A DNA stretch of 64,000 nt from assembly GCA_963748625.1 (NCBI GenBank), contig CAVVJT010000004.1, forward strand, positions 640,001 to 704,000. Direction: 5' to 3'. This DNA is from an uncultured Chloroflexia bacterium. Lineage in GTDB: Bacteria; Chloroflexota; Limnocylindria; Limnocylindrales; CSP1-4. Shown here in pieces: positions 16,307 to 48,798 of the stretch (its first letter is position 1; every line of letters begins with the position of its first letter). The translations under genes and the position numbers were made by a program. A model generated the notes under the pieces. It was not told where the DNA came from. It searched no databases and was given only the letters and a program-made list of their open reading frames with translations.

Positions 16307-17315
16307 ATGCAGTTCGGGTTCACGCTCAAGCCTGACCACTCCATCGAGCGGACGCTGGCGCTCACGAGGCAGGCCGAGCAGGCCGGCTTCACCTACGGCT
16401 GGCTGTTCGACAGCCACGTGCTGTGGCGGGACCCGTACCCGCTCCTGACGCTCATGGCCCAGGCGACGAAGACCATGCGCCTGGGCACCTGCGTGACCAA
16501 TCCGGCCACCCGTGAGCCGTCGGTGACAGCCTCCTCGCTGGCGGTGCTCAACGAGCTCTCCGGCGGCCGCATGGACCTGGGCATCGGGCGGGGCGACTCC
16601 GCGCGCCGGGTCCTGGGCAAGGCGCCGACGACCATGAAGGACCTCGAGCAGGCGGTCCACGTGATCCGGGCGCTCGCCGAGGGGCGCGGCATCGAGTTCG
16701 AAGGCACGATGCTGGAGCTGGGCTGGACCCCGGGGCACCGGCTCCCTGTCTGGATCGCGGGTTACGGTCCCGTGGCGCTCAAGCTCACCGGCCGCATCGC
16801 CGACGGGGCCATGCTCCAGATCGGCGACCCGGACCTCATCCGCTGGTTCGTGTCCCAGGTGCGCGCGTCCGCCGAGGAGTCGGGACGCGACCCGGACATG
16901 GTCCAGGTGATGGCGGCAGCGCCCGGCGCACGTGGGCGACCTGGCCGACGCCCGCGATCGCACCCGGTGGTTCCCGGCCCTGGTCGGCAACCACGTGGTG
17001 GACCTCGTGAACAAGTACCCGCGCGAGGACCTTCCGCCCGAGCTGACGGCCTACATCCGGGACCGTGAGAGCTACGACTACCTCCATCACGCGGAGGTCG
17101 GCTCGTCGAATGCCTCGTTCGTGACCGACGAGATCGTGGACCGCTTCTGCCTGGTGGGCTCGGTGGAGCAGCACATCGCGCGGCTCCGGGAGCTGGCGGA
17201 CGCCGGCGTGAGCCAGTTCAACCTCTACCTGATGAACGGGAACGAGGAGGAGCAGCTCGCGATCTACGGGAAGGAGATCATCCCGGCGTTCCGGGAGGCG
17301 TCCACCAAGGGCTAG
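16307..17315 (+). CDS. LLM-class (probably F420-dependent, TIGR03842-like) oxidoreductase; one +1 frameshift at ~16922
   Basis: ORFs 16307..17068 and 16932..17315 join if one C is removed from GCGCCCGGCGCAC (restores AAPAHVGD); motifs FDSHVLW, GTCVTNPATR, GIGRGDSA, WFPALVGNHV. Confidence 0.85.
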
Positions 17316-17327
17316 GCCGCCCGGAGG

Positions 17328-18530
17328 TCAGTCCTCTGGCAGGCCGCCCAGGCTCCGGGTGCGCGTGAGCCACGCGCGGCCCCGCCCGCCGAGGATGCGG
17401 AGCAGGTCCGGCGTCGACACGAACGGGAGCGGGATCAGGTCGTCCTGCGGCTGGTCCGGACCGAGCCGGAGTCCAGTGCCGTAGGCGACACCCAGGGCCA
17501 CCGCGGCGGCCGTTCCCGGGTCGAGCCGCAGATCCGGGGCCGGCGCTGCAGGAGCGCCCGGATCCGCGTGTGCCGGGAGCAGGAGGTCGAGATCGCCCAC
17601 GGCGCGGACCCCTGACGCCCGGATGGTGGTGAGGGCCTCCTCGGCCAATTCGCGAGCGCGCTCGGTGGCCCACCCGGGAAGGCGCACGCGGGCGGACCCG
17701 GCTTCCAGGGGCCGTCGCTTGGCATTGCGGGCCGCACCCGCGAGCACGAGGTAGTTCCGGGCGCCCCGGCGCATGCCAGCTCCAGCCGCTTGAACGTTGA
17801 GCTGGCGGATCAGCTCCACCTCGGGATGGGACAGCGAGCGGTTCTGGAGGTCCTCCACCGGCTGGAGCGTGCCCGGGCGCAACCCCAGGAGCCCATCGAA
17901 CGCGCGGAACAGGAAGTCGTGGTTGCGGGGATCGGCCACGACGATCGTCACCCGGTCCGGACCGGCGACGGTGGCCCAACGCTCCACGAGACGCCCATGG
18001 TGGTGCATCTGCCACTGGCTCGACGGCCGCTTGTCAGACCCTTCGGCGAACTGGACCTTGAGCCACTCGTCGAGTGTCCGCGTGTTGCCGGCTTGCACAG
18101 CCTGCTGCCACTTCGAGGCCAGGATGGCGTCGAGCTGGCGCAGCGTGATCACCACCTGGACGTCGGGACCCGTGTCGGACAGGATCCTCCGCACGGCGGC
18201 GTCGTCCGCGTGGGCGAGGAACTCCGAGCTGTACAGGACGCGCGAGGCCGTCGAGCGCCGCATCTCGCGCACGAGCCAGGTCCACCACTTGATCGGAGGG
18301 GCCTCGCGATCGTCACGCGCGAGGGCGGGGGTGCCGGCAACCGCTCGTGCCGGGGTTGCCGTGTGGCGCCGGTTGCCCGCGTAGTGCACGCCCTGGCGCT
18401 CGAGCTCGGGGCGTGCGGCCCAGCACGCGCCCTGGAGCGCCGTGGTGCCGGTCTTCGACGGGCCGATGTGCAGGATGCGCGAGCCGGCCGGCAGGGCGGC
18501 GGTCGGCAGCGTCGGTGCTTCGCTGTCCAC
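17328..18530 (-). CDS. Sulfotransferase-like P-loop protein
   Basis: LHIGPSKTGTTALQ (5'-PSB-like), YSSEFL, ITLRQLDAILASKWQQ; GTG start with GGAGG RBS. Confidence 0.7.
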   Translation of the reverse strand: MDSEAPTLPTAALPAGSRILHIGPSKTGTTALQGACWAARPELERQGVHYAGNRRHTATPARAVAGTPALARDDREAPPIKWWTWLVREMRRSTASRVLYSSEFLAHADDAAVRRILSDTGPDVQVVITLRQLDAILASKWQQAVQAGNTRTLDEWLKVQFAEGSDKRPSSQWQMHHHGRLVERWATVAGPDRVTIVVADPRNHDFLFRAFDGLLGLRPGTLQPVEDLQNRSLSHPEVELIRQLNVQAAGAGMRRGARNYLVLAGAARNAKRRPLEAGSARVRLPGWATERARELAEEALTTIRASGVRAVGDLDLLLPAHADPGAPAAPAPDLRLDPGTAAAVALGVAYGTGLRLGPDQPQDDLIPLPFVSTPDLLRILGGRGRAWLTRTRSLGGLPED

Positions 18531-18660
18531 GGGTCCTCCAGGGCGCAAGAGTACCGCCCTGCCGCGATCCGGCTCAATCCACCCACGTCCTGCGTGCGAA
18601 CCTTCGGTACGCGTGCCGTGCGTCGGCGCGAGTCCCTGTCGATCCCGCATCATCTGTGTC

Positions 18661-18981
18661 GTGCCCGGGCTCTACCTCCTCGTCATCCTGTTCTCGTTCG
18701 GCGGCGTCCTGCTGCTCGCCCACCGGTTCCTGCCGGGCGTGGTGGGCCTTCGCCTGCTGCGCCCGATCGTGGCGGTCCTCGCGGTGTTCCTCGCGTTCGA
18801 CCTGATCGGCGCGGCGCGCGGCTGGTTCGCCTCCAACCTCGACTGGGTGGTCGCGTACGTCGAGCCCGGGATCCCGCCCGAGGAGCCGCTGCTCCTCGCG
18901 TTCCTGGCGCTGTTCTCAGTCGTCCTGTTCGAGTCGTTCCGGTGGCTGGCACGCCGGCGCGGAGGCGGTCCCAATGCCTGA
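18661..18981 (+). CDS. Lycopene/C50 carotenoid cyclase small subunit (heterodimeric CrtYc/CrtYe type)
   Basis: Small TM protein, YLLVILFS...FLAFDLIGAARGWF...IPPEEPLL (PxEE motif); first gene of the crt operon. Confidence 0.75.
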   Translation: MPGLYLLVILFSFGGVLLLAHRFLPGVVGLRLLRPIVAVLAVFLAFDLIGAARGWFASNLDWVVAYVEPGIPPEEPLLLAFLALFSVVLFESFRWLARRRGGGPNA

Positions 18982-19309
18982 GTACACGCTCGCCTCGGTC
19001 CTCGTGCTCGCCCTGGGCTTCGTGGTCGCCGGGGTCGCAGGTGTGCTGCGCGAGCGGGCCGCGTGGGCGGGGCTCCTGGCGTTCGGGGCGATCACGGTCG
19101 TGGCGGACCTCATGCTGACGGGACTGCCGATCGTGACCTATGGACGCGAGCACAACGTCGGCCTGTACCTGGGACCCATGCCCATCGAGGACCTCCTGTA
19201 CGGGCTGGGGCTCTACCTGGTGGCCGTCGCGGCATGGGGCCGCCGGCCCGCGGAGGGGAACCTCCGGGCTGCCGACGTGGACCAGGGCGCCGCGGGCGCT
19301 GAACGGTGA
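18974..19309 (+). CDS. Carotenoid cyclase second subunit (CrtYd/CrtYf type)
   Basis: TVVADLMLTGLPIVTYG..N.GLYLGPMPIEDLLY (PIED motif); overlaps the previous gene. Confidence 0.8.
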   Translation: MPEYTLASVLVLALGFVVAGVAGVLRERAAWAGLLAFGAITVVADLMLTGLPIVTYGREHNVGLYLGPMPIEDLLYGLGLYLVAVAAWGRRPAEGNLRAADVDQGAAGAER

Positions 19310-21408
19310 CCGCCACGATCCCGGCCGCCGCGCGGTTCGGCGTCCGGGAGCTGCTCCTCGCGAGCCGTCCGGTCAGCTGGATCAACACCGCGCTCCCCTA
19401 CCTCGCCGCCTCCTTCGACCAGGTTCGCGGCCTCGACGCCGCCGTGGTCCTGGGAACGCTCTATTTCCTGATCCCGTACAACCTGCTGCTGTACGGGGTG
19501 AACGACCTGTTCGACTACGAGTCGGACATCCGCAACCCGCGCAAGCAGTCGCTCGAGGGTGGCCTCGTGGCACCCGCCAACGGGAGGCTGCTGTGGCTCT
19601 CGATCCTGGCGACCAACGTGCCCTTCGTGATCGTGCTGGCCTGGCTCGGCGGGCCGGTCGCGGCGGTCGTGCTCCTGCTGACGGTCGGCGTGGCGCTCAT
19701 GTACTCAGCGCCACCGCTGCGGACCAAGGAGCGGCCATTCCTGGACTCCACCACGTCGGCCTTGCACTTCGTCCTGCCCGCGATCTGCGGGTTCCTGGTG
19801 ACCGGGCGACCGCTGGCCGACCTGCCGTGGCCGGTCCTCGCGGGGTTCATGACCTGGGGCATCGCGAGCCACGCGATCGGGGCGATCCAGGACATCGAGT
19901 ACGACCGCGCCGCAGGCATCGGGTCCATCGCCACGGCCCTCGGCGGCCGGGCAACGGCCTGGGTCTCGCTGATCGGCTATGCGGTGGCGGTGGCCATGGC
20001 GCTGACGGTCGCCTTCCCGTGGGGCGTCATCGCCGCGCTGGCCCTCGCCTCCTACCTGCTGCTGCCGCTGATGGTGCTGCTGCGCGACGACGAGCCGCAG
20101 GCACGCCGGGCCTGGCGCAGCTTCATGCAGCTGAACATCCCAGTCGGCTTCATCCTGGCCCACGAGCTGCTCCGCAGCTGGGACGTGACCAAGTACCAGC
20201 CCTGGGAGATCGTCGTGGCGGCGGCCGCCTGCGTGGCCGGCTGGACGTTCCTCAACGCGCTCCTGATCCGGTTCGCCGCGCGCCGCCGGTCCCGCGGCTC
20301 CACCGCGGACGCGCTGCCGCCGGTGACCGTGGTCATCCCGTGCCGCAACGAGGCGGCGCGCCTGCCGGCGGTGCTCGCGTCCCTGGTCGCCCAGCGCTAC
20401 CCGGGCGACCTGCTCGCGCTCGTCGTCGATGACGGGTCCACCGACGCCACGCCGCGGCTGGCCGCCGAGGGGCTCGCCACGTTCGGCGACCGTGGACGTG
20501 TTCTCGCGGCCCCGCCGGCGCCCGGCGGCTGGTCGGGCAAGGGCTGGGCGGTGACGACCGGGGTCCAGGCCGCTACCACCGACCTCGTCCTCACGCTCGA
20601 CGCAGACACGACCCTTGCGCCCGGTGCCGTGGAGACGCTCGTCCGCGAGCAGCAGGCCGCGGGTGCCGATCTCATCTCCGGCGTCACGCGCTACGCGATG
20701 CCGACCATCGGCGAGCAGGTGGCCATGCCGGGCTACCCCATGCTGTTGTTCGGCTTCCTGCCCGTCTGGGTCTCCGCGCTGCGCGGAGGGCGGCCGGCGG
20801 CGCTGGCCTTCTCGTACGGGCCGCTCACGTTGTTCCGGCGCGAGGCCTACCTCGCGACGGGTGGGCACGCCGCCACCCCCGCCACGTACCGCGAGGACGT
20901 GGATCTCGCCCGCACCTTCGCAGCGAGCGGGCGGCGGATCGCGACCGTCCATGCCGCGGATCTCGCAACGACGCGCCACTACGCCGGCAGCGCCGAGATC
21001 TGGCGCTCGTGGGCAAGGATCCTCCCCGGCTACGCCGGCTGGTCGGTGGCCGCGGTCCTCGTGCTCTTCGCGGGCGAGGCTCTGGCCTGGGTCCTGCCGC
21101 TTGCCCTGCCGGTGCTTGCCCTTGCGCTCGACCCGGCGCAGGTGCCGATCACCCTGGTACCCCTGGCCGCGCTCATCGCCGCGCGGCTCGCCCTTGCCGT
21201 CACCCAGCGCCAGCCGCTGCTGACGGTCCTCCTCCACCCGCTCACCACCATCGTCACGCTCGGTGCCCAGGTCGCCGCCCTCGGCGCCATGGTGGCCGGG
21301 CGCACGCCCGACTGGCGCGGAAGGTCCATGCCCGACCCCGCAACCCAAGCCGACACCGCCACCCAATCCGCCCCCACACCACCGCACGTCCCCGGAGCAG
21401 CCTCATGA
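19306..21408 (+). CDS. Fusion: lycopene elongase (CrtEb-like UbiA prenyltransferase) plus GT2 glycosyltransferase
   Basis: N-terminal SRPVSWINTA, YGVNDLFDYESDIRNPRK, YSAPPLRTKERPFLDS, GAIQDI..DR..GI.SIAT; C-terminal VVIPCRNE, VDDGSTD, GWSGK, LDADT, EDV. One 700-aa ORF. Confidence 0.85.
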   Translation: MTATIPAAARFGVRELLLASRPVSWINTALPYLAASFDQVRGLDAAVVLGTLYFLIPYNLLLYGVNDLFDYESDIRNPRKQSLEGGLVAPANGRLLWLSILATNVPFVIVLAWLGGPVAAVVLLLTVGVALMYSAPPLRTKERPFLDSTTSALHFVLPAICGFLVTGRPLADLPWPVLAGFMTWGIASHAIGAIQDIEYDRAAGIGSIATALGGRATAWVSLIGYAVAVAMALTVAFPWGVIAALALASYLLLPLMVLLRDDEPQARRAWRSFMQLNIPVGFILAHELLRSWDVTKYQPWEIVVAAAACVAGWTFLNALLIRFAARRRSRGSTADALPPVTVVIPCRNEAARLPAVLASLVAQRYPGDLLALVVDDGSTDATPRLAAEGLATFGDRGRVLAAPPAPGGWSGKGWAVTTGVQAATTDLVLTLDADTTLAPGAVETLVREQQAAGADLISGVTRYAMPTIGEQVAMPGYPMLLFGFLPVWVSALRGGRPAALAFSYGPLTLFRREAYLATGGHAATPATYREDVDLARTFAASGRRIATVHAADLATTRHYAGSAEIWRSWARILPGYAGWSVAAVLVLFAGEALAWVLPLALPVLALALDPAQVPITLVPLAALIAARLALAVTQRQPLLTVLLHPLTTIVTLGAQVAALGAMVAGRTPDWRGRSMPDPATQADTATQSAPTPPHVPGAAS

Positions 21409-22931
21409 CCAAGCCCATGCACGCCGTTGTCATCGGCGCCGGCCTCGGCGGACTCGCCGCCGCCATCCGCCTCCAGGCCCAGGGCCACCGCGTGACGGTG
21501 GTGGAGCGCCGTCCCCAGATCGGCGGGCGCGCGTACCAGATCAAGGACCAGGGCTACACCTGGGACATGGGCCCGAGCCTCGTCACGATGCCCTGGCTCC
21601 TCGACGAGCTGTACGCGCTCGCCGGCACCACCACCGCCCAGCAGGTCACCCTGCGCCCCTTGGATCCCTTCTACCGGATCCAGTGGTCGGACGATCCGCG
21701 GATCTTCGACTACCAGGGCTCCCGCGAGGGCATGCTGGGCGAGATCGCCAAATTCTCCCAGGCCGACGCCGCCAACTACGACGCCTTCATGATCGCGTCC
21801 AAGGCGATCCACGAGCAGGGCATCCTGGTGGCAGGGCGCACGCCGTTCCTGGATCCCCTGCCGTTCGCGAAGCTCGTGCCAACCATGCTCAAGCTGGACG
21901 CGATCCGCTCGCTGCGCGGGTTCGTGGGCAAGTACTTCACCGACCCGCGCGTCCGGATGGTCTTCGACTTCCACTCGCTGTTCATCGGTGGCGACCCGTG
22001 GCGGGTGCCCGCGATCTACACCGCCCTCTCGTACCTGCAGGTGGCCGACGGCGTCTGGTACGCGGACGGCGGCGTCTACTCCATCGTCGAGAGCCTCGGC
22101 AACCTCATCCGTTCGGGCGGCGGTGAGATCCTCACCGGGCGCCGCGTGGCGGCCATCGAGACCAGCGGCAAGCGCGTCACCGGCGTGCGTCTGGGCGACG
22201 GCGAGCGGATCGAGGCGGACCTCGTCGTGTCCAATGCGGACACCACGCTGACCCGCCGCCGGCTGCTGGAGCCCGCCATCCCGGACCGCGCGCCGTGGCA
22301 GTGGATCCGGCCGCGCCACACGATGAGCGCGTACCTGCTCTACCTGGGCACCAACCGCCAGTTCCCGCAGCTCAAGCACCACACGCTGCTCGTCGGCGAG
22401 GACTACCCGGGGTTCGTCAAGCAGGTCACCCGCAAGCGGGAGCTGCCCGACACGCTGGCGCTCTACGTCCACGCGCCATCGCGCACGGAGCGCTCGATGG
22501 CCGCCAACGACGGCGAGTCCATCTACGTCCTGCTGCCCGTGCCGAACCTGGCCTCCCATGACGACTGGGCGACGGCAGGCCCCGAGATGCGGGAGCGCGT
22601 GCTCGACTTCATGGAGCACGACTTCGGCCTGGACGGCCTGCGCGAGTCGATCGTCGTGGAGCACAGCTTCACCCCGGCCGACTTCAAGCGCGAGCTGGAG
22701 GCGCCGCTGGGCAACGCGTTCGCCATCGAACCCGTGCTCTGGCAGTCGGCGTACTTCCGCCAGCCGAACCGGGACCGGACGGTGGGCGGGCTGTACTACG
22801 TGGGCGCCGGCACCCATCCTGGTGGCGGCATCCCGGGTGTGTTCCTGGGCGCAGACGTCACCGCCGGCGTGGTGGAGGCCGACGTCGCCTCCGGCCGCCT
22901 GACGCCGCGCTCGCCGGTTCGGGGAGGGTAG
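21405..22931 (+). CDS. crtI: Phytoene desaturase
   Basis: VIGAGLGGLAAAIRL FAD motif, GGRA, DMGPS, YVGAGTHPGGGIPGV; ATGA overlap with the upstream stop. Confidence 0.95.
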   Translation: MTKPMHAVVIGAGLGGLAAAIRLQAQGHRVTVVERRPQIGGRAYQIKDQGYTWDMGPSLVTMPWLLDELYALAGTTTAQQVTLRPLDPFYRIQWSDDPRIFDYQGSREGMLGEIAKFSQADAANYDAFMIASKAIHEQGILVAGRTPFLDPLPFAKLVPTMLKLDAIRSLRGFVGKYFTDPRVRMVFDFHSLFIGGDPWRVPAIYTALSYLQVADGVWYADGGVYSIVESLGNLIRSGGGEILTGRRVAAIETSGKRVTGVRLGDGERIEADLVVSNADTTLTRRRLLEPAIPDRAPWQWIRPRHTMSAYLLYLGTNRQFPQLKHHTLLVGEDYPGFVKQVTRKRELPDTLALYVHAPSRTERSMAANDGESIYVLLPVPNLASHDDWATAGPEMRERVLDFMEHDFGLDGLRESIVVEHSFTPADFKRELEAPLGNAFAIEPVLWQSAYFRQPNRDRTVGGLYYVGAGTHPGGGIPGVFLGADVTAGVVEADVASGRLTPRSPVRGG

Positions 22932-22963
22932 GCTCTCGACCACAGGCCAGCACAGGAGGGGTC

Positions 22964-23836
22964 ATGGCGCAGGTCGAGCGGTACGACGGCGAGGCGCGGG
23001 TCGTGATGGCCCGCGTCGCCCGGACGTTCGACCTGGCCACGCGCCTGCTCCCGCCCGACGTGCGCACGGACGTGCGGCGCCTCTACCTGGTGCTCCGCAC
23101 GCTGGACGACCTGGTGGACCACGGGTCGCCCGCCGAGGCGTCGGCCCGGCTGCGCGCCGTGGAGGCATGGGCGGACGGTGAGCCTGCGACGGGCCAGGAG
23201 GCCGACCTGCTCGCCGATCTCGCCGCACGCCACGCGGGCTTTCCCCGGGACGCCGTGGCCGACTTCTGCGCCGGCATGCGCGCAGACCTCGCCGGCCCGA
23301 AGCACGCGACCGACGCCGACCTCGACCTGTACTGCTACCAGGTGGCAGGGACGGTCGGGCGCCTGATGGCGCCCCTGCTCGGCGTGGTCGTCGGGCAAGA
23401 GCCTGCCGCCGACGCTGCCGCCCGGGCGCTCGGCGCCGCGATGCAGCGGACCAACATCCTGCGCGACGTGCGCGAGGACGCGGGCAACGGCCGGGTCTAC
23501 CTGCCCGACGACCTCCTGGGCTCCGCCGGCCTGGGTCCGGGGACGGAACCGGACACCGCGGTCGCGCTCACCGAGCTGCCCGCGTGGCCGGAGTCCCGCC
23601 GGCGGGCACTGCTCGCGCCGGAGATCGCCCGCGCTGACGCCGACTACGCCAAGGGCCTGGCGGGGGTTGCCTGCCTGGTCAGCGGACGGCCAGCCATCCG
23701 CGCGGCCGGGGCCATGTACCAGGGGATCCTGCGCGAGATCGAGCGAGACCGGTACGGCGCCAGCGGGCGTCGGGCGGTGGTGCCGCGGCGGCGGAAGGCG
23801 CGGTTCATCCTGGGTGCGGCCGTGGGGCCGGGGTGA
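22964..23836 (+). CDS. crtB: Phytoene synthase
   Basis: LYLVLRTLDDLVD, GMRADL, YCYQVAGTVG, MQRTNILRDVREDA..GRVYLP. Confidence 0.93.
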   Translation: MAQVERYDGEARVVMARVARTFDLATRLLPPDVRTDVRRLYLVLRTLDDLVDHGSPAEASARLRAVEAWADGEPATGQEADLLADLAARHAGFPRDAVADFCAGMRADLAGPKHATDADLDLYCYQVAGTVGRLMAPLLGVVVGQEPAADAAARALGAAMQRTNILRDVREDAGNGRVYLPDDLLGSAGLGPGTEPDTAVALTELPAWPESRRRALLAPEIARADADYAKGLAGVACLVSGRPAIRAAGAMYQGILREIERDRYGASGRRAVVPRRRKARFILGAAVGPG

Positions 23837-24456
23837 GCATGGAGACGGACCTCGTGGCGGTCTCGGTGACGCTGCCCGACCTGCTCGTGCCCCTTCTCGC
23901 GCTCATCGCCGGCTACCTGGTCGGTTCCATCCCCGTGTCCGCGTGGATCGGGCGGCGCGCCGGCGTGGATGTCGTCACGGACGGCGAGGCAAACCCTGGC
24001 TCGGCGAACGTCTGGCGGCTGGCCGGACCCGGCTGGGGCCTGCTGGCGCTCACCGGCGACCTCGCAAAGGGGGTCATGCCGGTCGCCTGGGGCCTTGCGA
24101 CGTGGGGCTGGGGCATCGGCTGGGCGGCCGGCCTGGGGGCGCTAGTCGGGGCGTCGTGGCCGCTGTTCGGGCGCCTGCGTGGGGGGCGCGGCGTGGCCGT
24201 CTTCGCGGGGGTGGCGTTCACCCTCAGCCCGCCCGCCGGAATCCTCGCCGTGACGCTCACACTCATCGTCCTGGGTGTCGCGAGGCTGCTGGGGCGCAAC
24301 GGACGGGTGACGGCCATCGCGGTCGGGGTCGGGACGTATCCGCTCCTGTTCTACGCGGCCGAGATGTCGCTCCTGCGGCTCGCGGCGCTCATGACGCTGT
24401 ACCTGGTGGCCGTGGTGCGGTTCGCGACCACGCGCACGGACCGGGCGCAGAGCTGA
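23833..24456 (+). CDS. PlsY-like membrane acyltransferase (divergent)
   Basis: GYLVGSIP, GEANPGSANVWR, DLAKG, GGRGVA; GTGA overlap with crtB; lacks the conserved GH and C-terminal HxxN motifs. Confidence 0.75.
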   Translation: MSMETDLVAVSVTLPDLLVPLLALIAGYLVGSIPVSAWIGRRAGVDVVTDGEANPGSANVWRLAGPGWGLLALTGDLAKGVMPVAWGLATWGWGIGWAAGLGALVGASWPLFGRLRGGRGVAVFAGVAFTLSPPAGILAVTLTLIVLGVARLLGRNGRVTAIAVGVGTYPLLFYAAEMSLLRLAALMTLYLVAVVRFATTRTDRAQS

Positions 24457-24538
24457 CAGCGGTCCGGTCGGCGCCACCTGGCACTGGCGCTCACTGCGCG
24501 GCGCGCGCACGCTGACACCACGTTCGAAGGAGGACGTC

Positions 24539-24796
24539 ATGCGCAACGTCTCCTGGCACCCGGAGGGCGGCCCCGTCCCCGACTCCGCGTTCGCCGCTCA
24601 CCTGCACGGCCGTGACCTCGAGGTTCTGGCCGATCCGGTCGCTCACCGCTGGCGCTGGCGTGTGACCTCGCCACATGGCGCGGTGCTTGCCGATGGCGCA
24701 GCGCCATCGCGCGACGCGGCCGAACAGGCGGCCGAGGACGAGGCGACGGCCGTGCATCCGCCGACGCCCGAGTTGTTGGACCGCCTCCTAGGCTGA
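24539..24796 (+). CDS. Hypothetical protein (85 aa)
   Basis: AAGGAGG RBS; WRWRVT..G..LADG...SRDAAEQAAE. Confidence 0.6.
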   Translation: MRNVSWHPEGGPVPDSAFAAHLHGRDLEVLADPVAHRWRWRVTSPHGAVLADGAAPSRDAAEQAAEDEATAVHPPTPELLDRLLG

Positions 24797-24807
24797 CCGA
24801 CGCTCCC

Positions 24808-24963
24808 GGCGCGCGTCCTCCCGCGGCGCGCGTCCTCCCGTCCAGCGGGCCTGGTCCTCCCGCGGCGCGCGTCCTCCCGTCCAGCGGGCCGCGTCCTCCC
24901 GCGGCGCGCGTCCTCCCGCGGCGCGCGTCCTCCCGCGGCGCGCGTCCTCCCGTCCAGCGGGCC
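24808..24963. repeat. Composite tandem repeat (17-bp unit mixed with a ~22-bp variant)
   Basis: Core GTCCTCCCG repeated about 8 times as GGCGCGCGTCCTCCCGC or GTCCTCCCGTCCAGCGGGCC. Confidence 0.85.
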
Positions 24964-25082
24964 TTGTGTACAGGATTCCGCACAGGCGTCCCGTCCAGCG
25001 GGCAGGATGCGCCCCAGCAGCCCAGAAACGGGCAGTCCCTGCCGGCTGGCGGGCCATGTGCGCAGGATTCTGCAGACAGTGC

Positions 25083-25226
25083 CCGGCAGGCGGGAAGGGG
25101 CACGCGGGAGCCGGCAGGCGGGAAGGGGCACGCGGGAGCCGGCAGGCGGGAAGGGGCACGCGGGAGCCGGCAGGCGGGAAGGGGCACGCGGGAGCCGGCA
25201 GGCGGGAAGGGGCACGCGGGAGCCGG
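25083..25226. repeat. Perfect tandem repeat, 5 x 28 bp (VNTR)
   Basis: CCGGCAGGCGGGAAGGGGCACGCGGGAG at 25083, 25111, 25139, 25167 and 25195; no spacers. Confidence 0.95.
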
Positions 25227-29046: not shown

Positions 29047-30072
29047 TCAGCCGTCCGCGTCCTCGTAGCCGTCAGGGTGCCGGCGGTGCCATGCCACGGC
29101 GCTCGAGGCGATCCCGGCCAGCGTCCGCGTCGCCCGCCAGCCGAGCGCATCCTCGGCGGCCCCGGTCGCCGCCCAGATGGCAGCAATGTCCCCGTCCCGG
29201 CGCGACGCGTGCCGGACCGGCACCGGCCCCCCCACCGCGGCCTCCACGGCGTCGATCACCTCGCGCACCGAGGTCCCAGTCCCGGTCCCCAGGTTCAGCG
29301 TCCGCGACGGACGGCCATCCCTGAGCCAGTCGAGCGCGCGGGCATGGGCCGCGGCGAGATCGTCCACGTGGACGTAGTCCCGCACCGCCGTGCCGTCCGG
29401 TGTGGGCCAGTCCGTCCCGAAGACCGTGACCGCCGGGCCCTGACCCAGGGCCGCACGCACGACCAGGGGCCACAGGTTGGTGGCGCCTGGCGCGTCCTCC
29501 CCATGCGCTCCGGACGGGTCGGCACCGGCGGCGTTGAAGTAGCGCAGGGCGACGTGGCGCAGGCCACGCGCCTCGAACCAGGGCAGCGCCCGCTCCACGA
29601 GCAGCTTGCTCTCCGCGTATGGCGTGGCAGGGCGCATGGGCGAGGTCTCGTCCACCGCACCCGCATCGGGCTCGCCGTACACCGCACAGGTTGACGAGAA
29701 CACGAAGGCCGACACGCCCGCCGCGACCGCCTCGGCGAGCAGGCCCAGCGTCCCACCGACGTTGGTCGCAAAGTAGGCTCCGGGCTCCCGGAGCGACTCG
29801 GGGGCGGACTTGCGGGCGGCGAAGTGGACGATTGCCTCGATTCCCTCCTCGCGCAGGATCCGCGCCACGAGCGCCCGGTCCTCGATCGCCCCCACGATCA
29901 GCGGCAAGCCCGCCACCGCCCCTGCGTGTCCTGTGACGAGCGAGTCGAGCACGACGACCCGGTGGCCCAGGCCCGCCAGCAGGCGGACCGTCGCCGAGCC
30001 GACGTACCCCGCGCCGCCGGTCACGAGCACGCGCAGGGGCGGTGCGGCAGGCGGGTTCGGTCTGGCGTTCAT
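29047..30072 (-). CDS. galE: UDP-glucose 4-epimerase
   Basis: VTGGAGYVGS, HFAA, FSSTCAVYG, YAESK, LRYFNAAGA, DGTAVRDYVHV. Confidence 0.93.
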   Translation of the reverse strand: MNARPNPPAAPPLRVLVTGGAGYVGSATVRLLAGLGHRVVVLDSLVTGHAGAVAGLPLIVGAIEDRALVARILREEGIEAIVHFAARKSAPESLREPGAYFATNVGGTLGLLAEAVAAGVSAFVFSSTCAVYGEPDAGAVDETSPMRPATPYAESKLLVERALPWFEARGLRHVALRYFNAAGADPSGAHGEDAPGATNLWPLVVRAALGQGPAVTVFGTDWPTPDGTAVRDYVHVDDLAAAHARALDWLRDGRPSRTLNLGTGTGTSVREVIDAVEAAVGGPVPVRHASRRDGDIAAIWAATGAAEDALGWRATRTLAGIASSAVAWHRRHPDGYEDADG

Positions 30073-30989
30073 GCCTGCTCGGCGGGCAGGACGGCGGGGC
30101 CTGGCGCCGTTCGCTCCCGTCGCCTGCGCACCGTCCCGACCCCACCCACGATCGCGAGGGCCGCGAGAGCGACCAGTGCGAAGGCCAGGGTGAGCACCTG
30201 GTCCGCGTTGAGCGTGCCGACGACGTCCGGGTCGCGCCAGGCAAGGGCGGCGATCGTGCGGCCGATGCCCCACAGGCCGAGGCCGAGCAGGAGGGCTCCG
30301 CCGTTGCGCCGTTCGAACACGTTGAGCGCCATCGCCCCCATCACCACGAGCAGGACCAGCAGCGTGAGCAACCCTTCGTACACCTGCGCGGGATGCGAGG
30401 GGAGTGCCGGCGCGAGCGAGCCCCATGGGCCGGGCGCGATGTACGCGGTTGCCCACGGCCCGTCGAAGGGAAGCCCCTGGCCGCTGCCGCCAAGCACCAT
30501 CGCGAGCTTGCCGGCAGCCAGCGCGAACAGGAGCGGGAGCGTCACCGCGTGGAGCCAGCGCCCGAGCGGCGCGCCGAGCATCCTGGCGACGAGCGACCCG
30601 GTCAGCAGCCCGCCCGCCACGGCAAGGGTGAGCTCGAAGGCGCCCTGGTTGATGTCGAGCACGGCGGCCGGGGTGGCCAGATAGAAGTCCAGGTGGGTCA
30701 GCGCGTAGCCGAGCCTGCCACCCACGACCGCGCCCGGGATGACGGCGACCGCGATGTACAGGAGATCGTCGGCGCGCAGGTGATTGGGTTCCCCGTCCGC
30801 ACCGGGCTCGGAGGCCGGTCGGTCGAGGTCCACCGGCGTGCGGCGCGCGAACACCGCCGCCGCCACGAGGGCGAGGAACAGGACGATGGCGTAGCCGATG
30901 GTCTCGAGCCGGACGCTCCAATCCCCGATGACCGCGATCGGGTCGAACGCGAGCTCGATGACGGGGAGGGATGCGACGGAGGGCAGCAC
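30069..30989 (-). CDS. Lgt-family membrane protein, degenerate paralogue
   Basis: FDPIA, GAVVGGRLGY, HPAQVYEG and R...WR support the Lgt fold; the WYG, (H/Y)GG and GRxGNF motifs are substituted. Confidence 0.8.
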   Translation of the reverse strand: MLPSVASLPVIELAFDPIAVIGDWSVRLETIGYAIVLFLALVAAAVFARRTPVDLDRPASEPGADGEPNHLRADDLLYIAVAVIPGAVVGGRLGYALTHLDFYLATPAAVLDINQGAFELTLAVAGGLLTGSLVARMLGAPLGRWLHAVTLPLLFALAAGKLAMVLGGSGQGLPFDGPWATAYIAPGPWGSLAPALPSHPAQVYEGLLTLLVLLVVMGAMALNVFERRNGGALLLGLGLWGIGRTIAALAWRDPDVVGTLNADQVLTLAFALVALAALAIVGGVGTVRRRRERTAPGPAVLPAEQA

Positions 30990-31023
30990 GACGCGGGCAG
31001 TCTACCGTCCGGGGCCGGAACGC

Positions 31024-39626: not shown

Positions 39627-41216
39627 TCAGTCGACCAGGAGGTCGGCGTCGAGGCGGATCGGGCCGGCCTCGCGGACGGCCTCGGACACGCCGTCGGCGT
39701 ACTTCTTGAAGTTCTCGTGGAACATCGCGGCGATCTTGCGCGCCGTCCGGTCGTAGGCGTCCTTGTCGGCCCAGGTGTTGCGCGGCAGGAGCACCTCGTC
39801 GGGCACGCCCGGCACGCTGGTGGGGACCATCACGTTGAAGATCGGGTCCATCACGAACTCGGCGTTGTCGAGCTCCCCGTTGATGGCAGCGCGGGCCATG
39901 TTCCGGGTGTGGTTGATGTTCATCCGGTGACCGGTGCCGTACGGGCCGCCGGTCCAGCCGGTGTTGATCAGCCAGACGGGCACGTCGTACGTGTCGAGGC
40001 GGTCCATGAGCATGTGGGCGTACTCGCCCGGGTGGCGGGGCAGGAACGGCTGGCCGAAGCCCGGCGGAGAACGTGGCCGACGGCTCCATCACACCGACCT
40101 CGGTGCCGGCAAGCTTCGCCGTGTAGCCGCTGATGAAGTGGTACGCCGCCTGCTCCGGCGTCAGCTTCGAGATGGGAGGCAGCACGCCGAACGCGTCGGC
40201 CGTGAGGAAGACGACGTTCTTGGGGCCGGGGGCGACGCCCGTGGGATCCGCGTTGCCGATGAAGTGGAGCGGGTACGCCGCCCGGGTGTTCTCCGTGAAG
40301 CGCTCGGAGTCGAGGTCGAGGTCCCGGGTGCCCTCGGTGAAGTCCGTGTTCTCCAGGATCGTGCCGAAGCGCTTCGTGGTGGCGAAGATGTCCGGCTCGT
40401 ACATCGGCGAGAGGCGGATGGTCTTGGCGTAGCAGCCACCCTCGAAGTTGAAGGTGTAGCCCTCGCCCCAGCCGTGCTCGTCGTCGCCGATGAGCGAGCG
40501 GAGCGGATCGGCCGAGAGGGTGGTCTTCCCCGTGCCCGAGAGGCCGAAGAAGATGCAGGCGTCGCCGCCGGGCCCACGTTGATGCTGGAGTGCATCGGGA
40601 GGACCTTCTCGTCCGGCATGAGGTAGTTCATGACGGTGAAGGCCGACTTCTTGATCTCGCCCGCGTACTTGGTGCCGACGATGATGATCTCCATCCGCTT
40701 GAGGTGGAGCAGGATCGCCGTGCTGGACTGCGGACGCCCTCGGTCGCAGGATCGGCCTGGAACGAGGGCACGTTGATGATCGTGAAGTTCGGGACGAACG
40801 TCGCGAGGTCCTCGCGCGCCGGCCGCCGGAACAGGTTCCGGGCGAAGATCGAGGCCCAGGCGGTCTCGGTGTAGACGCGGAGGCTGCGGCGATGCTCCAG
40901 GTGCGCGCCGATGTACATGTCCTGCGCGTACAGGCGCTTGTCGGCCACGTACGTCGACGAGGCGGGCGCGGAGCCTGTCGTAGTGCTCCTCGGACAGCTC
41001 GTGGTTGACCTCGCCCCACCAGACCTTGTCCTGGCTCCAGGGCTCCTTGACGACGAACTTGTCCTTGGGCGAGCGGCCGGTGTGGGGTCCGGTGCGGACG
41101 ACGAGCGGACCCTCGGCGGCAAGCTGGCCCTCGTCCTCGCGCAGGGAGCGCTCGTACAGCTCGGCGACGGACAGGTTGGCGACGACGCTGCCGCCGATCT
41201 GGCTGGGAGACGTCAT
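39627..41216 (-). CDS. pckA: PEP carboxykinase (ATP); about 4 apparent frameshifts
   Basis: [53 protein letters not shown] spread over several frames; shifts near 40952, 40728, 40570 and 40060. Confidence 0.9.
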
Positions 41217-45960: not shown

Positions 45961-46791
45961 TCAGCGGAACAGGGTCGTCAGGCCGCGCCCCCGCATGCGC
46001 GTGCCGGGTGGCGGGAGCACCGCAAGGTGGGCGTCGCGCACGGCATCCGCTGTCGCCGACCGGAACCCGTCGGCGATGCGATGGGCAAGGCGCCGCTCCT
46101 CGGCCGTCCCCGGCGCGGGCACGGCGTCCGGGACCGGAGACCCGTCTGCGGCAGCCCACGCCTGCCAGGGCTGGGCGGGGAGCACCCGCAGGACGAGGCG
46201 CCGGCCGAGGAACAGGACCTCGTTGCCCCCGAGGACCACCGGCACGATGGGCGCGCCCGTCCGCAGGGCGATGTAGCCGAGACCGGCTGCGACCGGGCGC
46301 GCCGTCCCGGGCTCGGAGGGGAAGCCGGACTCCGGGAACAGGCAGAACACGGCGCCGTTGTCGATCACCCGCACGGCGGCCTCCATGTGCGTCGCAAACG
46401 CCCGCGGGCCGCCACGCGACGGGATCGGGATCACCCCGCCCACCCGCCGCAGGACCCAGCGCCGGAGCGGTGAGCGCGCCATCGTGCGAGCGTCCCCAAA
46501 GAACACCAGGCGGGGCTCGGCCGGCAGCGTCATCCAGACCAGGAACGGGTCCACCCAGGCGCGATGCGGGAGGCCCGCCGCGATCCAGCCGCCCGCCCGG
46601 TGGCCGTCGGGTGTGCGCGGCAGGTGCTCCAGGCCCTGCACCTCGAGGTGGAAGCGGAGCGCGAATGCCGCCACCCGCCAGGTGCCGCGCAGCAGCCGGT
46701 AGGCGAACCCCGCGTGCGGCGTCGCCCCGCCTGCCAGGCCGGCCGAGAGCTCGGGGATCCCGGGCGGGTCGGGCTCAGGCGCGCGCGGCAT
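45961..46791 (-). CDS. Lysophospholipid acyltransferase (PlsC family)
   Basis: HRAWVD (HX4D), LFPESG, ALRTGAPIVPV. Confidence 0.88.
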   Translation of the reverse strand: MPRAPEPDPPGIPELSAGLAGGATPHAGFAYRLLRGTWRVAAFALRFHLEVQGLEHLPRTPDGHRAGGWIAAGLPHRAWVDPFLVWMTLPAEPRLVFFGDARTMARSPLRRWVLRRVGGVIPIPSRGGPRAFATHMEAAVRVIDNGAVFCLFPESGFPSEPGTARPVAAGLGYIALRTGAPIVPVVLGGNEVLFLGRRLVLRVLPAQPWQAWAAADGSPVPDAVPAPGTAEERRLAHRIADGFRSATADAVRDAHLAVLPPPGTRMRGRGLTTLFR

Positions 46792-46794
46792 CGG

Positions 46795-48660: not shown

Positions 48661-48798
48661 CGCCGCGAGTGTACCCGGCCCCGGCCTCGTCCCGGCCTCG
48701 TCCCCGTCCCGGCCTCGTCCCCGTCCCGTCCCGCGGTCTGTTCGGCTATCCTCGGCCGCGATGCAGCACGACGCACGGCCGGACGCGGGGACCTCCCT

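What the first reader, a model, noticed from the sequence alone, without database searches (positions are those of the whole stretch)
19306..21408. Lycopene elongase fused to a GT2 glycosyltransferase in a C50 carotenoid operon
Seen: one uninterrupted 700-aa ORF joining a CrtEb-type UbiA prenyltransferase to a GT2 domain, overlapping the cyclase gene upstream and crtI downstream. It lies outside the frameshift-rich zone. Known: in Corynebacterium and Micrococcus, CrtEb extends lycopene to hydroxylated C50 products and a separate CrtX glucosylates them; the fusion I know of (Dietzia LbtBC) is cyclase plus elongase. Inference: a single enzyme could install the hydroxy-prenyl arm and glycosylate it, making C50 glycosides in a lineage where these may be undescribed.
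Basis: partly seen in the sequence, partly recalled or inferred. Interest (0 to 1): 0.78.

Follow-up and report, generated by a model that had tools for sequence, protein, structure and literature searches.

The report
Fused carotenoid elongase–glycosyltransferase gene
One real gene joins the enzyme that lengthens lycopene to a 50-carbon pigment with a sugar-adding enzyme; the fusion is widespread in uncultured soil and freshwater bacteria but we found no published study of it.

Summary
Window 19306-21408 (+) is a single 700-aa coding frame (third-position GC 0.87-1.00 throughout, linker included) with a UbiA prenyltransferase half and a membrane GT2 half. The N-half passes NCBI's curated cut-off for the model that also captures the standalone elongases of actinobacterial crt clusters. 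Catalytic Asp motifs of both halves are invariant or nearly invariant across 30 relatives.

It sits in a translationally coupled operon: cycA-cycB-[elongase-GT2]-crtI-crtB-PlsY-like.

The fusion is not an artefact and not rare. 118 of 120 listed 90%-identity clusters carry both domains. At least 29 of the 150 best 50%-identity representatives span both halves. 9 of 10 fused genome loci are one stop-free frame, and 9 of 10 keep the same gene order. Hosts are Chloroflexota (Limnocylindria-like, as the window is), Dormiibacterota and one record labelled Saccharibacteria. All 70 actinobacterial loci have the elongase alone. Four relatives add a cyclase domain (cyclase-elongase-GT2).

Most likely function: a bifunctional membrane enzyme that makes C50 carotenoid glycosides. 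The chemistry is inferred, not shown. Nine literature searches, one of them uninformative, found no description of the fusion. It is a new variant of a known kind, of moderate interest.

The parts
18658..18981 (+). cycA: first small subunit of a two-subunit lycopene-cyclase-domain enzyme (about 107 aa; the exact start is uncertain, relatives begin MPG-YL)
   Evidence: No Pfam or NCBIfam hit, even at E 0.1. Conserved in this position in 8 of 10 fused loci at 48-76% identity. Profile-profile match to the cycB family: probability 92.4%, E 5.3e-07. Invariant P-x-E-E (P73, E75, E76). Overlaps the cycB start by 8 nt.
18974..19309 (+). cycB: second cyclase subunit, 111 aa
   Evidence: Pfam Lycopene_cyc PF18916, E 6.8e-10, 39.8 bits against a cut-off of 27. 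TIGR03462 scores 39.1 against a cut-off of 39.4, just below. Invariant P70, E72, D73. Its stop overlaps the fusion's start (GTGA). The homologous domain is fused N-terminally in 4 relatives.
19306..21408 (+). Fused elongase-glycosyltransferase gene, 700 aa (the finding)
19306..20175 (+). Residues 1-290: UbiA-fold lycopene-elongase half, all helical and membrane-embedded
   Evidence: PF01040 at 42-275. NF009608 at residues 13-290, 304.3 bits against 217. N66-D67-x-x-D70-x-x-x-D74 and D196-x-x-x-D200 are conserved in at least 90% of 30 sequences. 63% mean identity to relatives, 0.00 gap fraction. Helices per the model.
20200..20280 (+). Residues 299-325: linker transmembrane helix
   Evidence: Hydropathy peak 2.06 at residues 302-320. 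Modelled as helix H299-325. 29% sequence identity but zero gaps and zero insertions in the other 29 members. Followed by an Arg-rich loop of variable length (ARRRSR). The HpnB model aligns from residue 305 at profile position 4, so this helix corresponds to the N-terminal anchor of standalone relatives.
20323..20985 (+). Residues 340-560: GT-A fold catalytic domain of the GT2 half
   Evidence: PF00535 and PF13641. D375-D376, D432-A433-D434 and R529-E530-D531 are invariant or at least 90% conserved. Alternating strands and helices in the model. Foldseek top hits are membrane GT2s: PcManGT 6yv7, E 6e-09.
20989..21294 (+). Residues 562-663: C-terminal helical membrane bundle of the GT2 half
   Evidence: Hydropathy. 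Helices H562-576, H581-608, H610-633 and H644-663. 44% identity with no gaps.
21405..22931 (+). crtI: phytoene desaturase
   Evidence: TIGR02734 crtI_fam, 524.3 bits against a cut-off of 238.1. PF01593. ATGA overlap with the fusion's stop. Present next to the fusion in the 9 syntenic loci.
22964..23836 (+). crtB: phytoene synthase
   Evidence: PF00494 SQS_PSY, E 1.4e-55. GGAGGGG lies 5 nt upstream of the ATG. Conserved after crtI in the 9 syntenic loci.
23833..24456 (+). PlsY-like acyltransferase paralog, possibly the last gene of the operon (membership uncertain)
   Evidence: PF02660, 100.7 bits. Only 72.5 bits on the PlsY equivalog TIGR00023, cut-off 137.2. GTGA overlap with the crtB stop. 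A homolog directly follows crtB in 4 of 10 fused loci.

Best explanation
The ORF encodes one bifunctional integral-membrane enzyme of a C50-carotenoid pathway in a Limnocylindria-like Chloroflexota bacterium.

Shown by computation:
- The gene is real and continuous.
- Its N-half belongs to the lycopene-elongase group of UbiA prenyltransferases, and both Asp-rich Mg-diphosphate motifs are intact.
- Its C-half is a membrane-anchored GT-A fold GT2 with intact DxD and acid motifs.
- The two halves are joined by a transmembrane helix of fixed length.
- The gene sits in a conserved, translationally coupled operon with a two-subunit cyclase, crtI and crtB.

Inferred mechanism:
1. CrtB and CrtI make lycopene.
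2. The elongase half adds a C5 unit to C-2 at each end, giving hydroxylated C45/C50 intermediates of the flavuxanthin type, as described for CrtEb and CrtE2.
3. The CycA/CycB pair closes the end rings.
4. The GT2 half, whose catalytic domain lies on the same (cytoplasmic) face as the elongase active site, transfers a hexose from a nucleotide sugar to the hydroxyl on the new arm. GT2 enzymes invert the anomeric configuration, so the product would be a beta-glycoside.

Fusion would keep the very hydrophobic intermediate within one membrane assembly. The cyclase-elongase-GT2 triple fusions in relatives suggest that the cyclase is part of that assembly.

Not resolved: the order of cyclisation and glycosylation, the identity of the sugar, and the ring type.
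For: - Real single gene.
- Domains and curated-model membership.
- Both catalytic motif sets conserved across 30 members at 43-80% identity.
- Confident two-domain model (mean pLDDT 91.6, pTM 0.89).
- GT half resembles solved membrane GT2s.
- Linker is a length-invariant hydrophobic helix followed by a positively charged loop.
- Fusion recurs: 118 of 120 listed clusters; at least 29 of the 150 best 50%-identity representatives, with identities down to 27% (counted by hand); 9 of 10 fused genome loci are stop-free.
- Context is conserved: 9 of 10 fused loci show cycA/cycB-fusion-crtI-crtB. The tenth, L026, has crtI, a polyprenyl synthase and crtB beside the fusion.
- The nearest standalone relatives of the GT half that carry a specific name are carotenoid glycosyltransferases: chlorobactene glucosyltransferase twice, and one name beginning 4,4'-diaponeurospo.... 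The best HMMs are HpnB and CruG, both terpenoid-lipid GT2s.
- No hydroxylase, hydratase or ketolase was found among the window ORFs scanned (6, 14, 30, 5). The elongase step is therefore the only evident source of an acceptor hydroxyl.
- Triple fusions, 4 of 4 confirmed in the order cyclase-UbiA-GT2.
- Pathway chemistry of CrtEb/CrtE2/LbtBC and the cyclases: passages in PMC6393565 and PMC5401885.
Against: - No biochemical or pigment data exist for any member. All 10 fused genome loci are metagenome-assembled genomes.
- The GT half fails the curated cut-offs of the two named terpenoid GT models: HpnB 142 against 379.25, CruG 116.5 against 600. Its acceptor is therefore not established by family membership.
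- It shares only a 50-residue nucleotide-binding stretch with the small GT2 beside an Arthrobacter crt cluster. Only 2 of 70 actinobacterial loci have any GT2-half hit within 7 kb. There is thus no orthology bridge to a characterised C50 glycosyltransferase.
- NF009608 is named only 'prenyltransferase'. It also scores 325 bits on the cyclase-less L026 protein, so it does not tell a flavuxanthin-forming elongase from a hydratase-type one.
- No GGPP synthase was found among the window ORFs scanned.
- The elongase and GT steps are not consecutive if the cyclase acts between them.
- The window has frame breaks elsewhere, and reads could not be inspected.
Confidence: 0.68

Rival explanations
1. The N-half is a lycopene elongase, but the GT2 half acts on something other than the C50 carotenoid. 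Candidates are a polyprenyl phosphate, a hopanoid-type lipid or another membrane lipid. On this view the fusion reflects co-regulation or co-localisation, not two steps on one substrate.
For: - The best HMM for the GT half is the hopene-associated HpnB model, and it scores below its cut-off.
- Many standalone relatives are auto-named dolichol-phosphate mannosyltransferase.
- The structural neighbours are polyprenyl-phosphate or polysaccharide GT2s: PcManGT, ArnC, hyaluronan and cellulose synthases.
- No characterised ortholog is known.
Against: - The fusion partner and the crt operon context are conserved across three phyla-level groups, in 10 of 10 fused loci.
- Triple fusions with the cyclase exist.
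- The only function-specific names among close standalone relatives are carotenoid GTs.
- No hopanoid or polysaccharide genes lie next to it.
Confidence: 0.15
2. The elongase half is of the LyeJ type (elongase plus 1,2-hydratase), or the small cyclase-domain proteins work on C40 substrates. The product would then be an acyclic bacterioruberin-like glycoside carrying a tertiary hydroxyl, or a mixture of pigments, and not a cyclic decaprenoxanthin-, sarcinaxanthin- or C.p.450-type glycoside.
For: - NF009608 does not separate the two chemistries, and it hits the cyclase-less L026 protein at 325 bits.
- L026 carries the fusion with no cyclase.
- lyeJ/crtD/cruF genes have been reported in Patescibacteria (passages in PMC9948471).
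- The window protein also hits two other 'prenyltransferase' equivalogs below their cut-offs: NF010119 at 176.9 and NF009516 at 137.3.
Against: - The two cyclase subunit genes are translationally coupled to the fusion in the window. They are conserved upstream in 9 of 10 fused loci and physically fused in 4 relatives.
- No CruF- or CrtD-specific hit was found. The crtI gene scores 319 against a cut-off of 640 on the bifunctional CrtID model, and 209-244 against cut-offs of 500-580 on the CrtD models.
- The N-half is 43-51% identical to elongases of 70 actinobacterial loci, 63 of them with both crtB and crtI alongside.
Confidence: 0.12
3. The single ORF is an assembly artefact: two adjacent genes joined by a sequencing indel or a lost stop codon.
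For: The window contains genes split across frames elsewhere. One related locus (L058) has a frame change between the halves, along with a crtI broken into four pieces in different frames.
Against: - The codon-position GC signal is continuous across the junction.
- The junction is a length-conserved helix with no gaps in the other 29 members.
- 118 of 120 clusters from several independent sources carry both domains.
- 9 of 10 fused genome loci are stop-free.
- The fold model is confident through residues 290-340, with 10-residue block means of pLDDT at 78 or above.
Confidence: 0.02

Closest known systems
Corynebacterium glutamicum / Micrococcus luteus C50 pathway: CrtEb (CrtE2) elongase + CrtYe/Yf (CrtYg/Yh) cyclase + separate CrtX glycosyltransferase
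   Same: - The same set of activities is predicted: lycopene C5-elongation, cyclisation by a two-subunit enzyme, and glycosylation.
- The N-half passes the same curated NCBIfam model as the standalone elongases tested from actinobacterial crt clusters. These came from Glutamicibacter, Clavibacter, Microbacterium and a record titled 'Corynebacterium-like bacterium', not from C. glutamicum or M. luteus.
- It is 43-51% identical to such elongases.
- crtB and crtI are clustered with it.
   Different: - Here the elongase and the glycosyltransferase are one polypeptide.
- The gene order is cyc-cyc-elongase/GT-crtI-crtB, where the actinobacterial order is crtB-crtI-...-crtEb.
- On the elongase tree, fused and standalone forms separate at one branch with SH-aLRT support of 100.
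- The GT half has no close homolog beside 68 of 70 actinobacterial clusters.
- The lineage is Chloroflexota.
Dietzia sp. CQ4 LbtBC (cyclase subunit fused to elongase)
   Same: - It is a precedent for fusing C50-pathway enzymes around the elongase (PMC6669644 table footnote; PMC6393565).
- In the window, cycB and the elongase are one frame shift from that arrangement (GTGA overlap).
- Four relatives have cyclase-elongase in one chain.
   Different: LbtBC has no glycosyltransferase domain. The window's fusion is on the other (C-terminal) side of the elongase, and its cyclase subunits are separate genes.
Membrane GT2 glycosyltransferases of isoprenoid lipids: CruG (myxol 2'-O-glycosyltransferase), CruC (chlorobactene glucosyltransferase), CrtQ (diaponeurosporenoate glycosyltransferase), HpnB
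   Same: - The layout matches: N-terminal anchor helix, GT-A domain, C-terminal helical bundle. The HpnB and CruG models align over residues 305-676 and 328-632.
- Standalone relatives carry these names.
- They show the same pair of best HMMs.
   Different: Identity to the nearest standalone proteins is only 32-39%. The scores are far below both curated cut-offs. None of those enzymes is known to me as fused to a prenyltransferase (recalled, not tested).
Haloarchaeal LyeJ/Lye (lycopene elongase/hydratase of bacterioruberin synthesis)
   Same: It is a UbiA-family lycopene C5-elongase. Its products, bacterioruberins, carry hydroxyls. That they occur as glycosides in some bacteria is recalled, not seen in a call.
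   Different: No cruF or crtD partners were found here, and cyclases are present. No LyeJ reference sequence was compared directly.

Membership tests
UbiA superfamily of membrane prenyltransferases | Pfam UbiA match above the gathering score | tested here: met
   PF01040, 90.7 bits against 34.2, residues 42-275.
UbiA superfamily of membrane prenyltransferases | Two Asp-rich motifs (NDxxDxxxD and DxxxD) that bind the Mg-diphosphate (motif definition recalled) | tested here: met
   N66, D67, D70, D74, D196 and D200 are each conserved in at least 90% of 30 sequences.
UbiA superfamily of membrane prenyltransferases | All-helical polytopic membrane fold | tested here: met
   Residues 13-291 are modelled as helices at high pLDDT. 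Hydrophobic stretches are present. The family profile hits solved UbiA-fold proteins: chlorophyll synthase at 1.5e-06, 4tq3 at 2.8e-05 and 4od4 at 8.3e-05.
Lycopene elongase group (CrtEb / CrtE2 / LbtC; NCBIfam NF009608) | Score above the curated equivalog cut-off | tested here: met
   304.3 bits against 217. The model is named only 'prenyltransferase', but it scores 410-484 bits on 4 of 4 standalone enzymes taken from actinobacterial crtB-crtI-...-crtEb clusters.
Lycopene elongase group (CrtEb / CrtE2 / LbtC; NCBIfam NF009608) | Clustered with lycopene-synthesis genes and C50-type two-subunit cyclase genes | tested here: met
   Window. Related loci: 9 of 10.
Lycopene elongase group (CrtEb / CrtE2 / LbtC; NCBIfam NF009608) | Converts lycopene to hydroxylated C45/C50 products | not testable with these tools
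   This needs expression in a lycopene-producing host and LC-MS.
Glycosyltransferase family 2 (GT-A fold, inverting) | Pfam GT2 match above the gathering score, and a GT-A fold | tested here: met
   PF00535, 82.4 bits against 23.3, and PF13641, 67.7 bits against 27. Foldseek probability is 1.00 to the GT2 structures 6yv7, 9omn, 8smm and 4p00.
Glycosyltransferase family 2 (GT-A fold, inverting) | DxD metal/nucleotide-sugar motif and a downstream acidic catalytic residue (definition recalled) | tested here: met
   D432 and D434 are invariant, and A433 is at least 90% conserved. D375, D376, E530 and D531 are each at least 90% conserved.
CruG (NF045692) and HpnB (TIGR03469) equivalogs | Score above the curated cut-off | tested here: not met
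   CruG 116.5 against 600, HpnB 142 against 379.25. The GT half resembles them but is not filed as a member of either.
Actinobacterial CrtX (C50 carotenoid glycosyltransferase) | Sequence orthology to characterised CrtX | tested here: inconclusive
   No CrtX reference sequence was at hand. Indirect evidence: 2 of 70 actinobacterial crt loci have a GT2-half hit within 7 kb, covering only 50 and 140 residues. The L018 protein (252 aa) aligns over 50 residues only, and I cannot confirm that it is CrtX.
LbtBC-type cyclase-elongase fusion | Cyclase domain and elongase in one polypeptide | tested here: not met
   In the window, cycB is a separate ORF in another frame that overlaps the fusion by 4 nt. 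The feature is met in 4 relatives: P0098, P0109, P0111 and P0117.
Two-subunit lycopene-cyclase-domain enzymes (CrtYc/Yd, CrtYe/Yf, CrtYg/Yh, LbtA/B) | Two adjacent small membrane proteins, each with the cyclase domain and a PxE(E/D) motif (motif recalled) | tested here: met
   cycB: PF18916, 39.8 bits against 27. cycA: no Pfam hit, but hhalign gives 92.4% probability to the cycB family. Invariant P-x-E-E and P-x-E-D.
Two-subunit lycopene-cyclase-domain enzymes (CrtYc/Yd, CrtYe/Yf, CrtYg/Yh, LbtA/B) | Specificity for C50 over C40 substrates, and the ring type formed | not testable with these tools
   No discriminating sequence feature is known to me. Product analysis is needed.

The most novel reading that the evidence does not exclude
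The operon may encode a self-contained membrane assembly line. Elongase and glycosyltransferase are in one chain, the two-subunit cyclase docks on it (in some relatives all three are one chain), and the divergent PlsY-like acyltransferase after crtB esterifies the sugar. If so, uncultured Chloroflexota, Dormiibacterota and at least one genome labelled Saccharibacteria would make C50 carotenoid glycosides or glycoside esters. These pigments have so far been documented only in Actinomycetota and haloarchaea. Glycosylation might also precede cyclisation, reversing the order assumed for Corynebacterium.
Probability: 0.2. Interest if true: 0.65.

Novelty: new variant of a known kind. Interest (0 to 1): 0.45.

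Why it matters
If the prediction holds, C50 carotenoid glycosides are made well outside the Actinomycetota and haloarchaea where they are known. The new hosts would include abundant, uncultured soil and freshwater Chloroflexota, and genomes assigned to Dormiibacterota and Saccharibacteria. A natural single-chain elongase-glycosyltransferase, and the three-in-one versions that add a cyclase, would be a compact part for engineering water-dispersible C50 pigments. It would also be a tractable case for studying how membrane enzymes hand over a very hydrophobic intermediate. The limits are clear. Fusing enzymes of one pathway is a familiar theme (LbtBC is the direct precedent). The family is already abundant in sequence databases under generic names. 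Nothing about its chemistry has been measured.

Tried and rejected
- Complex prediction of cycB against residues 1-330 of the fusion: no verdict. The score was 0.00 against a mark of 0.32, and the partner's own fold was uncertain. It counts neither for nor against binding. The idea that the cyclase docks on the fusion rests only on the triple fusions and the LbtBC precedent.
- Protein atlas: all hits were at or below 0.87 and were generic GT2 clusters. It gave no lead.
- Netzer et al. 2010 (PMC2953688): not held, so the M. luteus crtX description was not read.
- Literature search: the terms were too generic (98,496 papers) and it was uninformative. In one search, none of the 20 listed papers held 'lycopene elongase', but 733 papers matched at least two terms, so it is a weak negative.
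- Looking for the GT2 half as a separate gene next to actinobacterial elongases: only two short, generic matches.
- Promoter and terminator scan of 18300-25100: 0 and 0 sites, against 0.2 and 1.2 expected in shuffles. This is uninformative for a high-GC non-E. coli organism.
- Assembly artefact: rejected (see the rival explanations).
- tblastn of the upstream minus-strand ORF 17328-18653 against the 80 loci: no hits, so it is not part of the conserved unit.
- Model coordinates were not exposed to scripts, so distances between the two active sites were not measured.


Full report
**1. The observation**

The ORF listing gives an ORF at 19306..21408 (+), 700 aa, with a GTG start (translation). 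The window is about 71% G+C, and long ORFs occur in several frames over the same DNA, so the ORF alone proves little. Three further results make it a gene.

- Pfam finds UbiA at residues 42-275 (E 1.2e-25) and GT2 models over residues 338-628 (PF00535, E 4.8e-23) in the same frame.
- GC at the third codon position of this frame is 0.87-1.00 in every 180-nt window from 19290 to 21359. It is 0.97-1.00 over the proposed linker at 20150-20330. The signal switches frame only at the ends, where cycB stops and crtI starts.
- The five long ORFs that overlap the fusion or the adjacent crtI gene in other frames or on the other strand have no Pfam match.

The cycB TGA overlaps the fusion's GTG (GTGA). 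The fusion's TGA overlaps the crtI ATG (ATGA), which puts the crtI start at 21405.

**2. The operon**

The unit runs as follows.

- cycA, about 18658-18981.
- cycB, 18974-19309. Lycopene_cyc, E 6.8e-10.
- The fusion, 19306-21408.
- crtI, 21405-22931. TIGR02734, 524 bits against a cut-off of 238.
- crtB, 22964-23836. SQS_PSY, E 1.4e-55.
- A PlsY-like gene, 23833-24456. PF02660.

The junctions are 8-nt, 4-nt, 4-nt and 4-nt overlaps, plus one 32-nt spacer with GGAGGGG ahead of crtB.

cycA has no Pfam hit even at E 0.1. Its family profile matches the cycB family at 92.4% probability, and both carry an invariant P-x-E-(E/D) motif. Together they look like a two-subunit cyclase.

Across 55 window ORFs scanned (6, 14, 30, 5) there is no GGPP synthase, carotenoid hydroxylase, hydratase, ketolase or rhodopsin. 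No promoter- or terminator-like site falls inside 18300-25100, but that is weak evidence.

**3. The two halves**

*N-half.* NCBIfam NF009608 scores 304.3 bits against a cut-off of 217 over residues 13-290. The model's name is only 'prenyltransferase'. I therefore tested it on four standalone enzymes taken from actinobacterial crtB-crtI-...-crtEb clusters. All four score 410-484 bits, and fused proteins from two other lineages score 282 and 325 bits. The Asp-rich motifs N66-D67-x-x-D70-x-x-x-D74 and D196-x-x-x-D200 are each at least 90% conserved in 30 sequences.

*C-half.* It has GT2 Pfam hits. Its best NCBIfam models are HpnB (142 bits, cut-off 379) and CruG (116.5 bits, cut-off 600), both aligned nearly end to end and both far below their cut-offs. 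D375-D376, D432-A433-D434 and R529-E530-D531 are invariant or nearly so.

*Linker.* Residues 299-325 are a hydrophobic helix. Its sequence varies (29% identity), but its length is fixed, with no gap or insertion in the other 29 members. An Arg-rich loop of variable length follows. The HpnB model begins aligning at residue 305 at its profile position 4. The helix therefore corresponds to the N-terminal anchor of standalone relatives and is not read-through sequence.

*Model.* AlphaFold2 on the 30-sequence alignment gives mean pLDDT 91.6 and pTM 0.89. It shows an all-helical N-half, a strand/helix GT-A domain at residues 340-560 and a C-terminal helical bundle at 562-663. Foldseek's best matches are membrane GT2s: PcManGT 6yv7 (E 6e-09), ArnC, and hyaluronan and cellulose synthases. 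A sequence profile finds the same enzymes plus UbiA-fold structures.

**4. How common the fusion is, and where it occurs**

- *Word-indexed search with the whole protein.* 159 hits, 120 listed. Of those, 118 carry both PF01040 and PF00535 in the precomputed annotation. Most are 660-760 aa, at 43-100% identity. The two exceptions, P0113 and P0122, show weak matches to the missing domain when scanned directly. Nine rows carry organism names: 4 Candidatus Limnocylindrales, 4 Chloroflexi/Chloroflexota and 1 Actinomycetes.
- *Exhaustive search of 1.84 billion 50%-identity representatives.* 280 proteins at E<=1e-30. Among the 150 listed, 29 align in one stretch from query residue <=100 to >=650, with identities down to 27% (counted by hand). 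Five more proteins of 597-728 aa match in two stretches.
- *Scan of GTDB species genomes.* 588 relatives were found and 80 kept. Ten match over both halves: eight Chloroflexota MAGs, one Candidatus Dormiibacterota and one labelled Candidatus Saccharibacteria. The other seventy match only query residues ~4-309. They are Actinomycetota (Microbacteriaceae, Micrococcaceae, Aeromicrobium and others) at 43-51% identity.
- *Continuity in the fused loci.* In 9 of the 10, the two halves are one stop-free frame. L058 has a frame change, and its crtI is also broken.
- *Tree of the elongase domain.* 105 rows were used; 5 were dropped, three for a stop in the translated stretch and two as too short. The 39 fused rows and the 66 standalone rows separate at one branch, SH-aLRT 100. 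This fits a single fusion or fission event. The tree is unrooted, so the direction is unknown.
With, this places the window in Limnocylindria-like Chloroflexota (lineage).

**5. Conserved context**

tblastn of the window's proteins against the loci gives cycA-cycB-fusion-crtI-crtB in 9 of 10 fused loci. L006 is cut at the contig edge within cycB. The PlsY-like gene follows crtB in 4 of the 10.

L026 differs. It has 40% G+C. crtI, a polyprenyl synthase and crtB lie on the opposite strand next to a 677-aa fusion, and there is no cyclase.

In the 70 standalone loci the order is crtB-crtI-...-elongase, with crtI present in 68 and crtB in 63. A hit to the GT2 half appears in only 2, covering 50 and 140 residues. 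The L018 protein is a 252-aa GT2 that shares just the nucleotide-binding stretch.

**6. Relatives of the GT half**

A search sized to exclude fused proteins found 134 hits, of which 120 are listed.

- Three hits are 55-76% identical. Two lie on contigs of about 2 kb. One is a 269-aa protein on a 196-kb contig, so it may be a split or frameshifted copy.
- The next proteins are 32-39% identical membrane GT2s of 350-495 aa. Many come from Streptosporangiales.
- The only function-specific names are chlorobactene glucosyltransferase (2) and a name beginning 4,4'-diaponeurospo... (1). The rest are generic.
- Four of these proteins, scanned directly, have HpnB and CruG as their two best models, and none reaches either cut-off.

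The GT half thus lies in a loose group of GT2s that act on isoprenoid lipids. It has been separate from its nearest standalone kin for a long time.

**7. Triple fusions**

P0098, P0109, P0111 and P0117 (735-742 aa) carry Lycopene_cyc at about residues 3-89, UbiA at about 112-355 and GT2 at about 415-680. This is the Dietzia LbtBC arrangement (PMC6669644, passages; PMC6393565, passages) with a GT2 added. It is Rosetta-stone evidence that cyclase, elongase and glycosyltransferase act together. My one complex-prediction job gave no verdict, so it is listed only under what was tried.

**8. Mechanism**

Established for the family, from passages in PMC6393565 and PMC5401885:

- CrtEb and CrtE2 attach C5 units at C-2 and C-2' of lycopene, giving flavuxanthin.
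- Two-subunit cyclases then form the epsilon, gamma or beta rings.
- A separate CrtX glycosylates the product.

Inferred here: the same three steps occur, with the first and the last carried by one polypeptide. The GT-A domain sits after an odd helix and a positively charged loop, which places it on the cytoplasmic face. The UbiA-family active site faces the same side (recalled for solved UbiA structures, not measured here). The GT2 would transfer a hexose with inversion of configuration (a general GT2 property, recalled) to the arm hydroxyl.

Open points: whether glycosylation precedes or follows cyclisation, which sugar is used, which ring type forms, and whether the hydroxyl is of the flavuxanthin type or the hydratase type.

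**9. Literature**

Nine full-text searches were run. Passages were read in eight papers:

- PMC6169038
- PMC10998873
- PMC2889829
- PMC7734400
- PMC5401885
- PMC6669644
- PMC9948471
- PMC6393565

None describes a UbiA/CrtEb-GT2 fusion or C50 carotenoids in Chloroflexota. The freshwater Chloroflexi paper mentions only 'genes for carotenoid biosynthesis'. The Baikal paper reports lyeJ/crtD/cruF in Patescibacteria without mentioning a glycosyltransferase: the term occurs 0 times in it. The library lacks most subscription journals, and supplements were not consulted, so 'not described' is provisional. Databases already hold the proteins under automatic names such as 'prenyltransferase' or '4-hydroxybenzoate polyprenyltransferase/GT2 family glycosyltransferase'.

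**10. Verdict**

The gene is a member of a sizeable, deep, uncharacterised family. It is best described as a new variant (a domain fusion) of the known C50 carotenoid pathway, in lineages where that pathway has not been reported.

It is not unique to this window, and its chemistry is inferred. Interest is moderate at 0.45. The specific surprise is the taxonomic reach and the two- or three-in-one enzyme architecture, not a new kind of biology.

Noticed in passing
window 23833-24456 (+): A PlsY-like acyltransferase gene overlaps the crtB stop (GTGA). It has a strong Pfam G3P_acyltransf hit (100.7 bits) but scores only 72.5 bits on the PlsY equivalog (cut-off 137.2). A homolog follows crtB in 4 of 10 fused loci (L001, L002, L004, L005). 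It could be an acyltransferase for the glycoside, or simply a neighbour.
   Followed up: partly
L026:1-16007 (record labelled Candidatus Saccharibacteria; 797,647-bp contig): A 40% G+C locus with crtI, a polyprenyl synthase and crtB, all divergent from a 677-aa elongase-GT2 fusion, and no cyclase genes. This is a carotenoid cluster in a reduced-genome lineage. Its elongase sits on a long branch (0.92) of odd composition. Compare the Patescibacteria lyeJ report, PMC9948471.
   Followed up: partly
proteins P0098, P0109, P0111, P0117 (relatives, 735-742 aa): Natural three-domain proteins with lycopene-cyclase subunit, elongase and GT2 in one chain. P0098 and P0109 group together on the elongase tree.
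   Followed up: partly
window 16307-17068 and 16932-17315 (+): A luciferase-like monooxygenase is split over two overlapping ORFs in different frames. Pfam profile positions 6-226 fall in one and 243-313 in the other. This is a frameshift or an assembly error.
   Followed up: no
window 39627-40088 (-): Only the last 89 profile positions of PEPCK_ATP (377-465 of 465) are found in a 153-aa ORF. The rest of the gene must lie in other frames or be missing.
   Followed up: no
window 17328-18653 (-): A 441-aa ORF divergent from the crt operon. It has a plausible protein-like sequence but no Pfam or NCBIfam match, and no counterpart in the 80 related loci. It contains GPSKTGTTALQ, which reminds me of a sulfotransferase PAPS-binding motif (recalled, untested).
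   Followed up: partly
window 46795-49161 (-) and 30069-31001 (-): A 788-aa ORF combines a prolipoprotein diacylglyceryl transferase domain (LGT, E 1.5e-58) with a PlsC-type acyltransferase domain. A second, shorter LGT gene lies at 30069-31001, and a separate acyltransferase at 45961-46794.
   Followed up: no
listing (representative proteins): Many proteins of about 375-430 aa have the elongase match at their C-terminal end (LbtBC-like lengths). A few of about 515 aa have it starting near residue 230. Fusions of other kinds around this elongase therefore seem frequent. Their N-terminal parts were not scanned.
   Followed up: no
L058:9147-10616 and L003:9187-10619: crtI is broken into pieces in different frames in two long-read-style MAG loci, and L058 also has a frame change inside the fusion. 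These are probably assembly errors and not pseudogenes.
   Followed up: no
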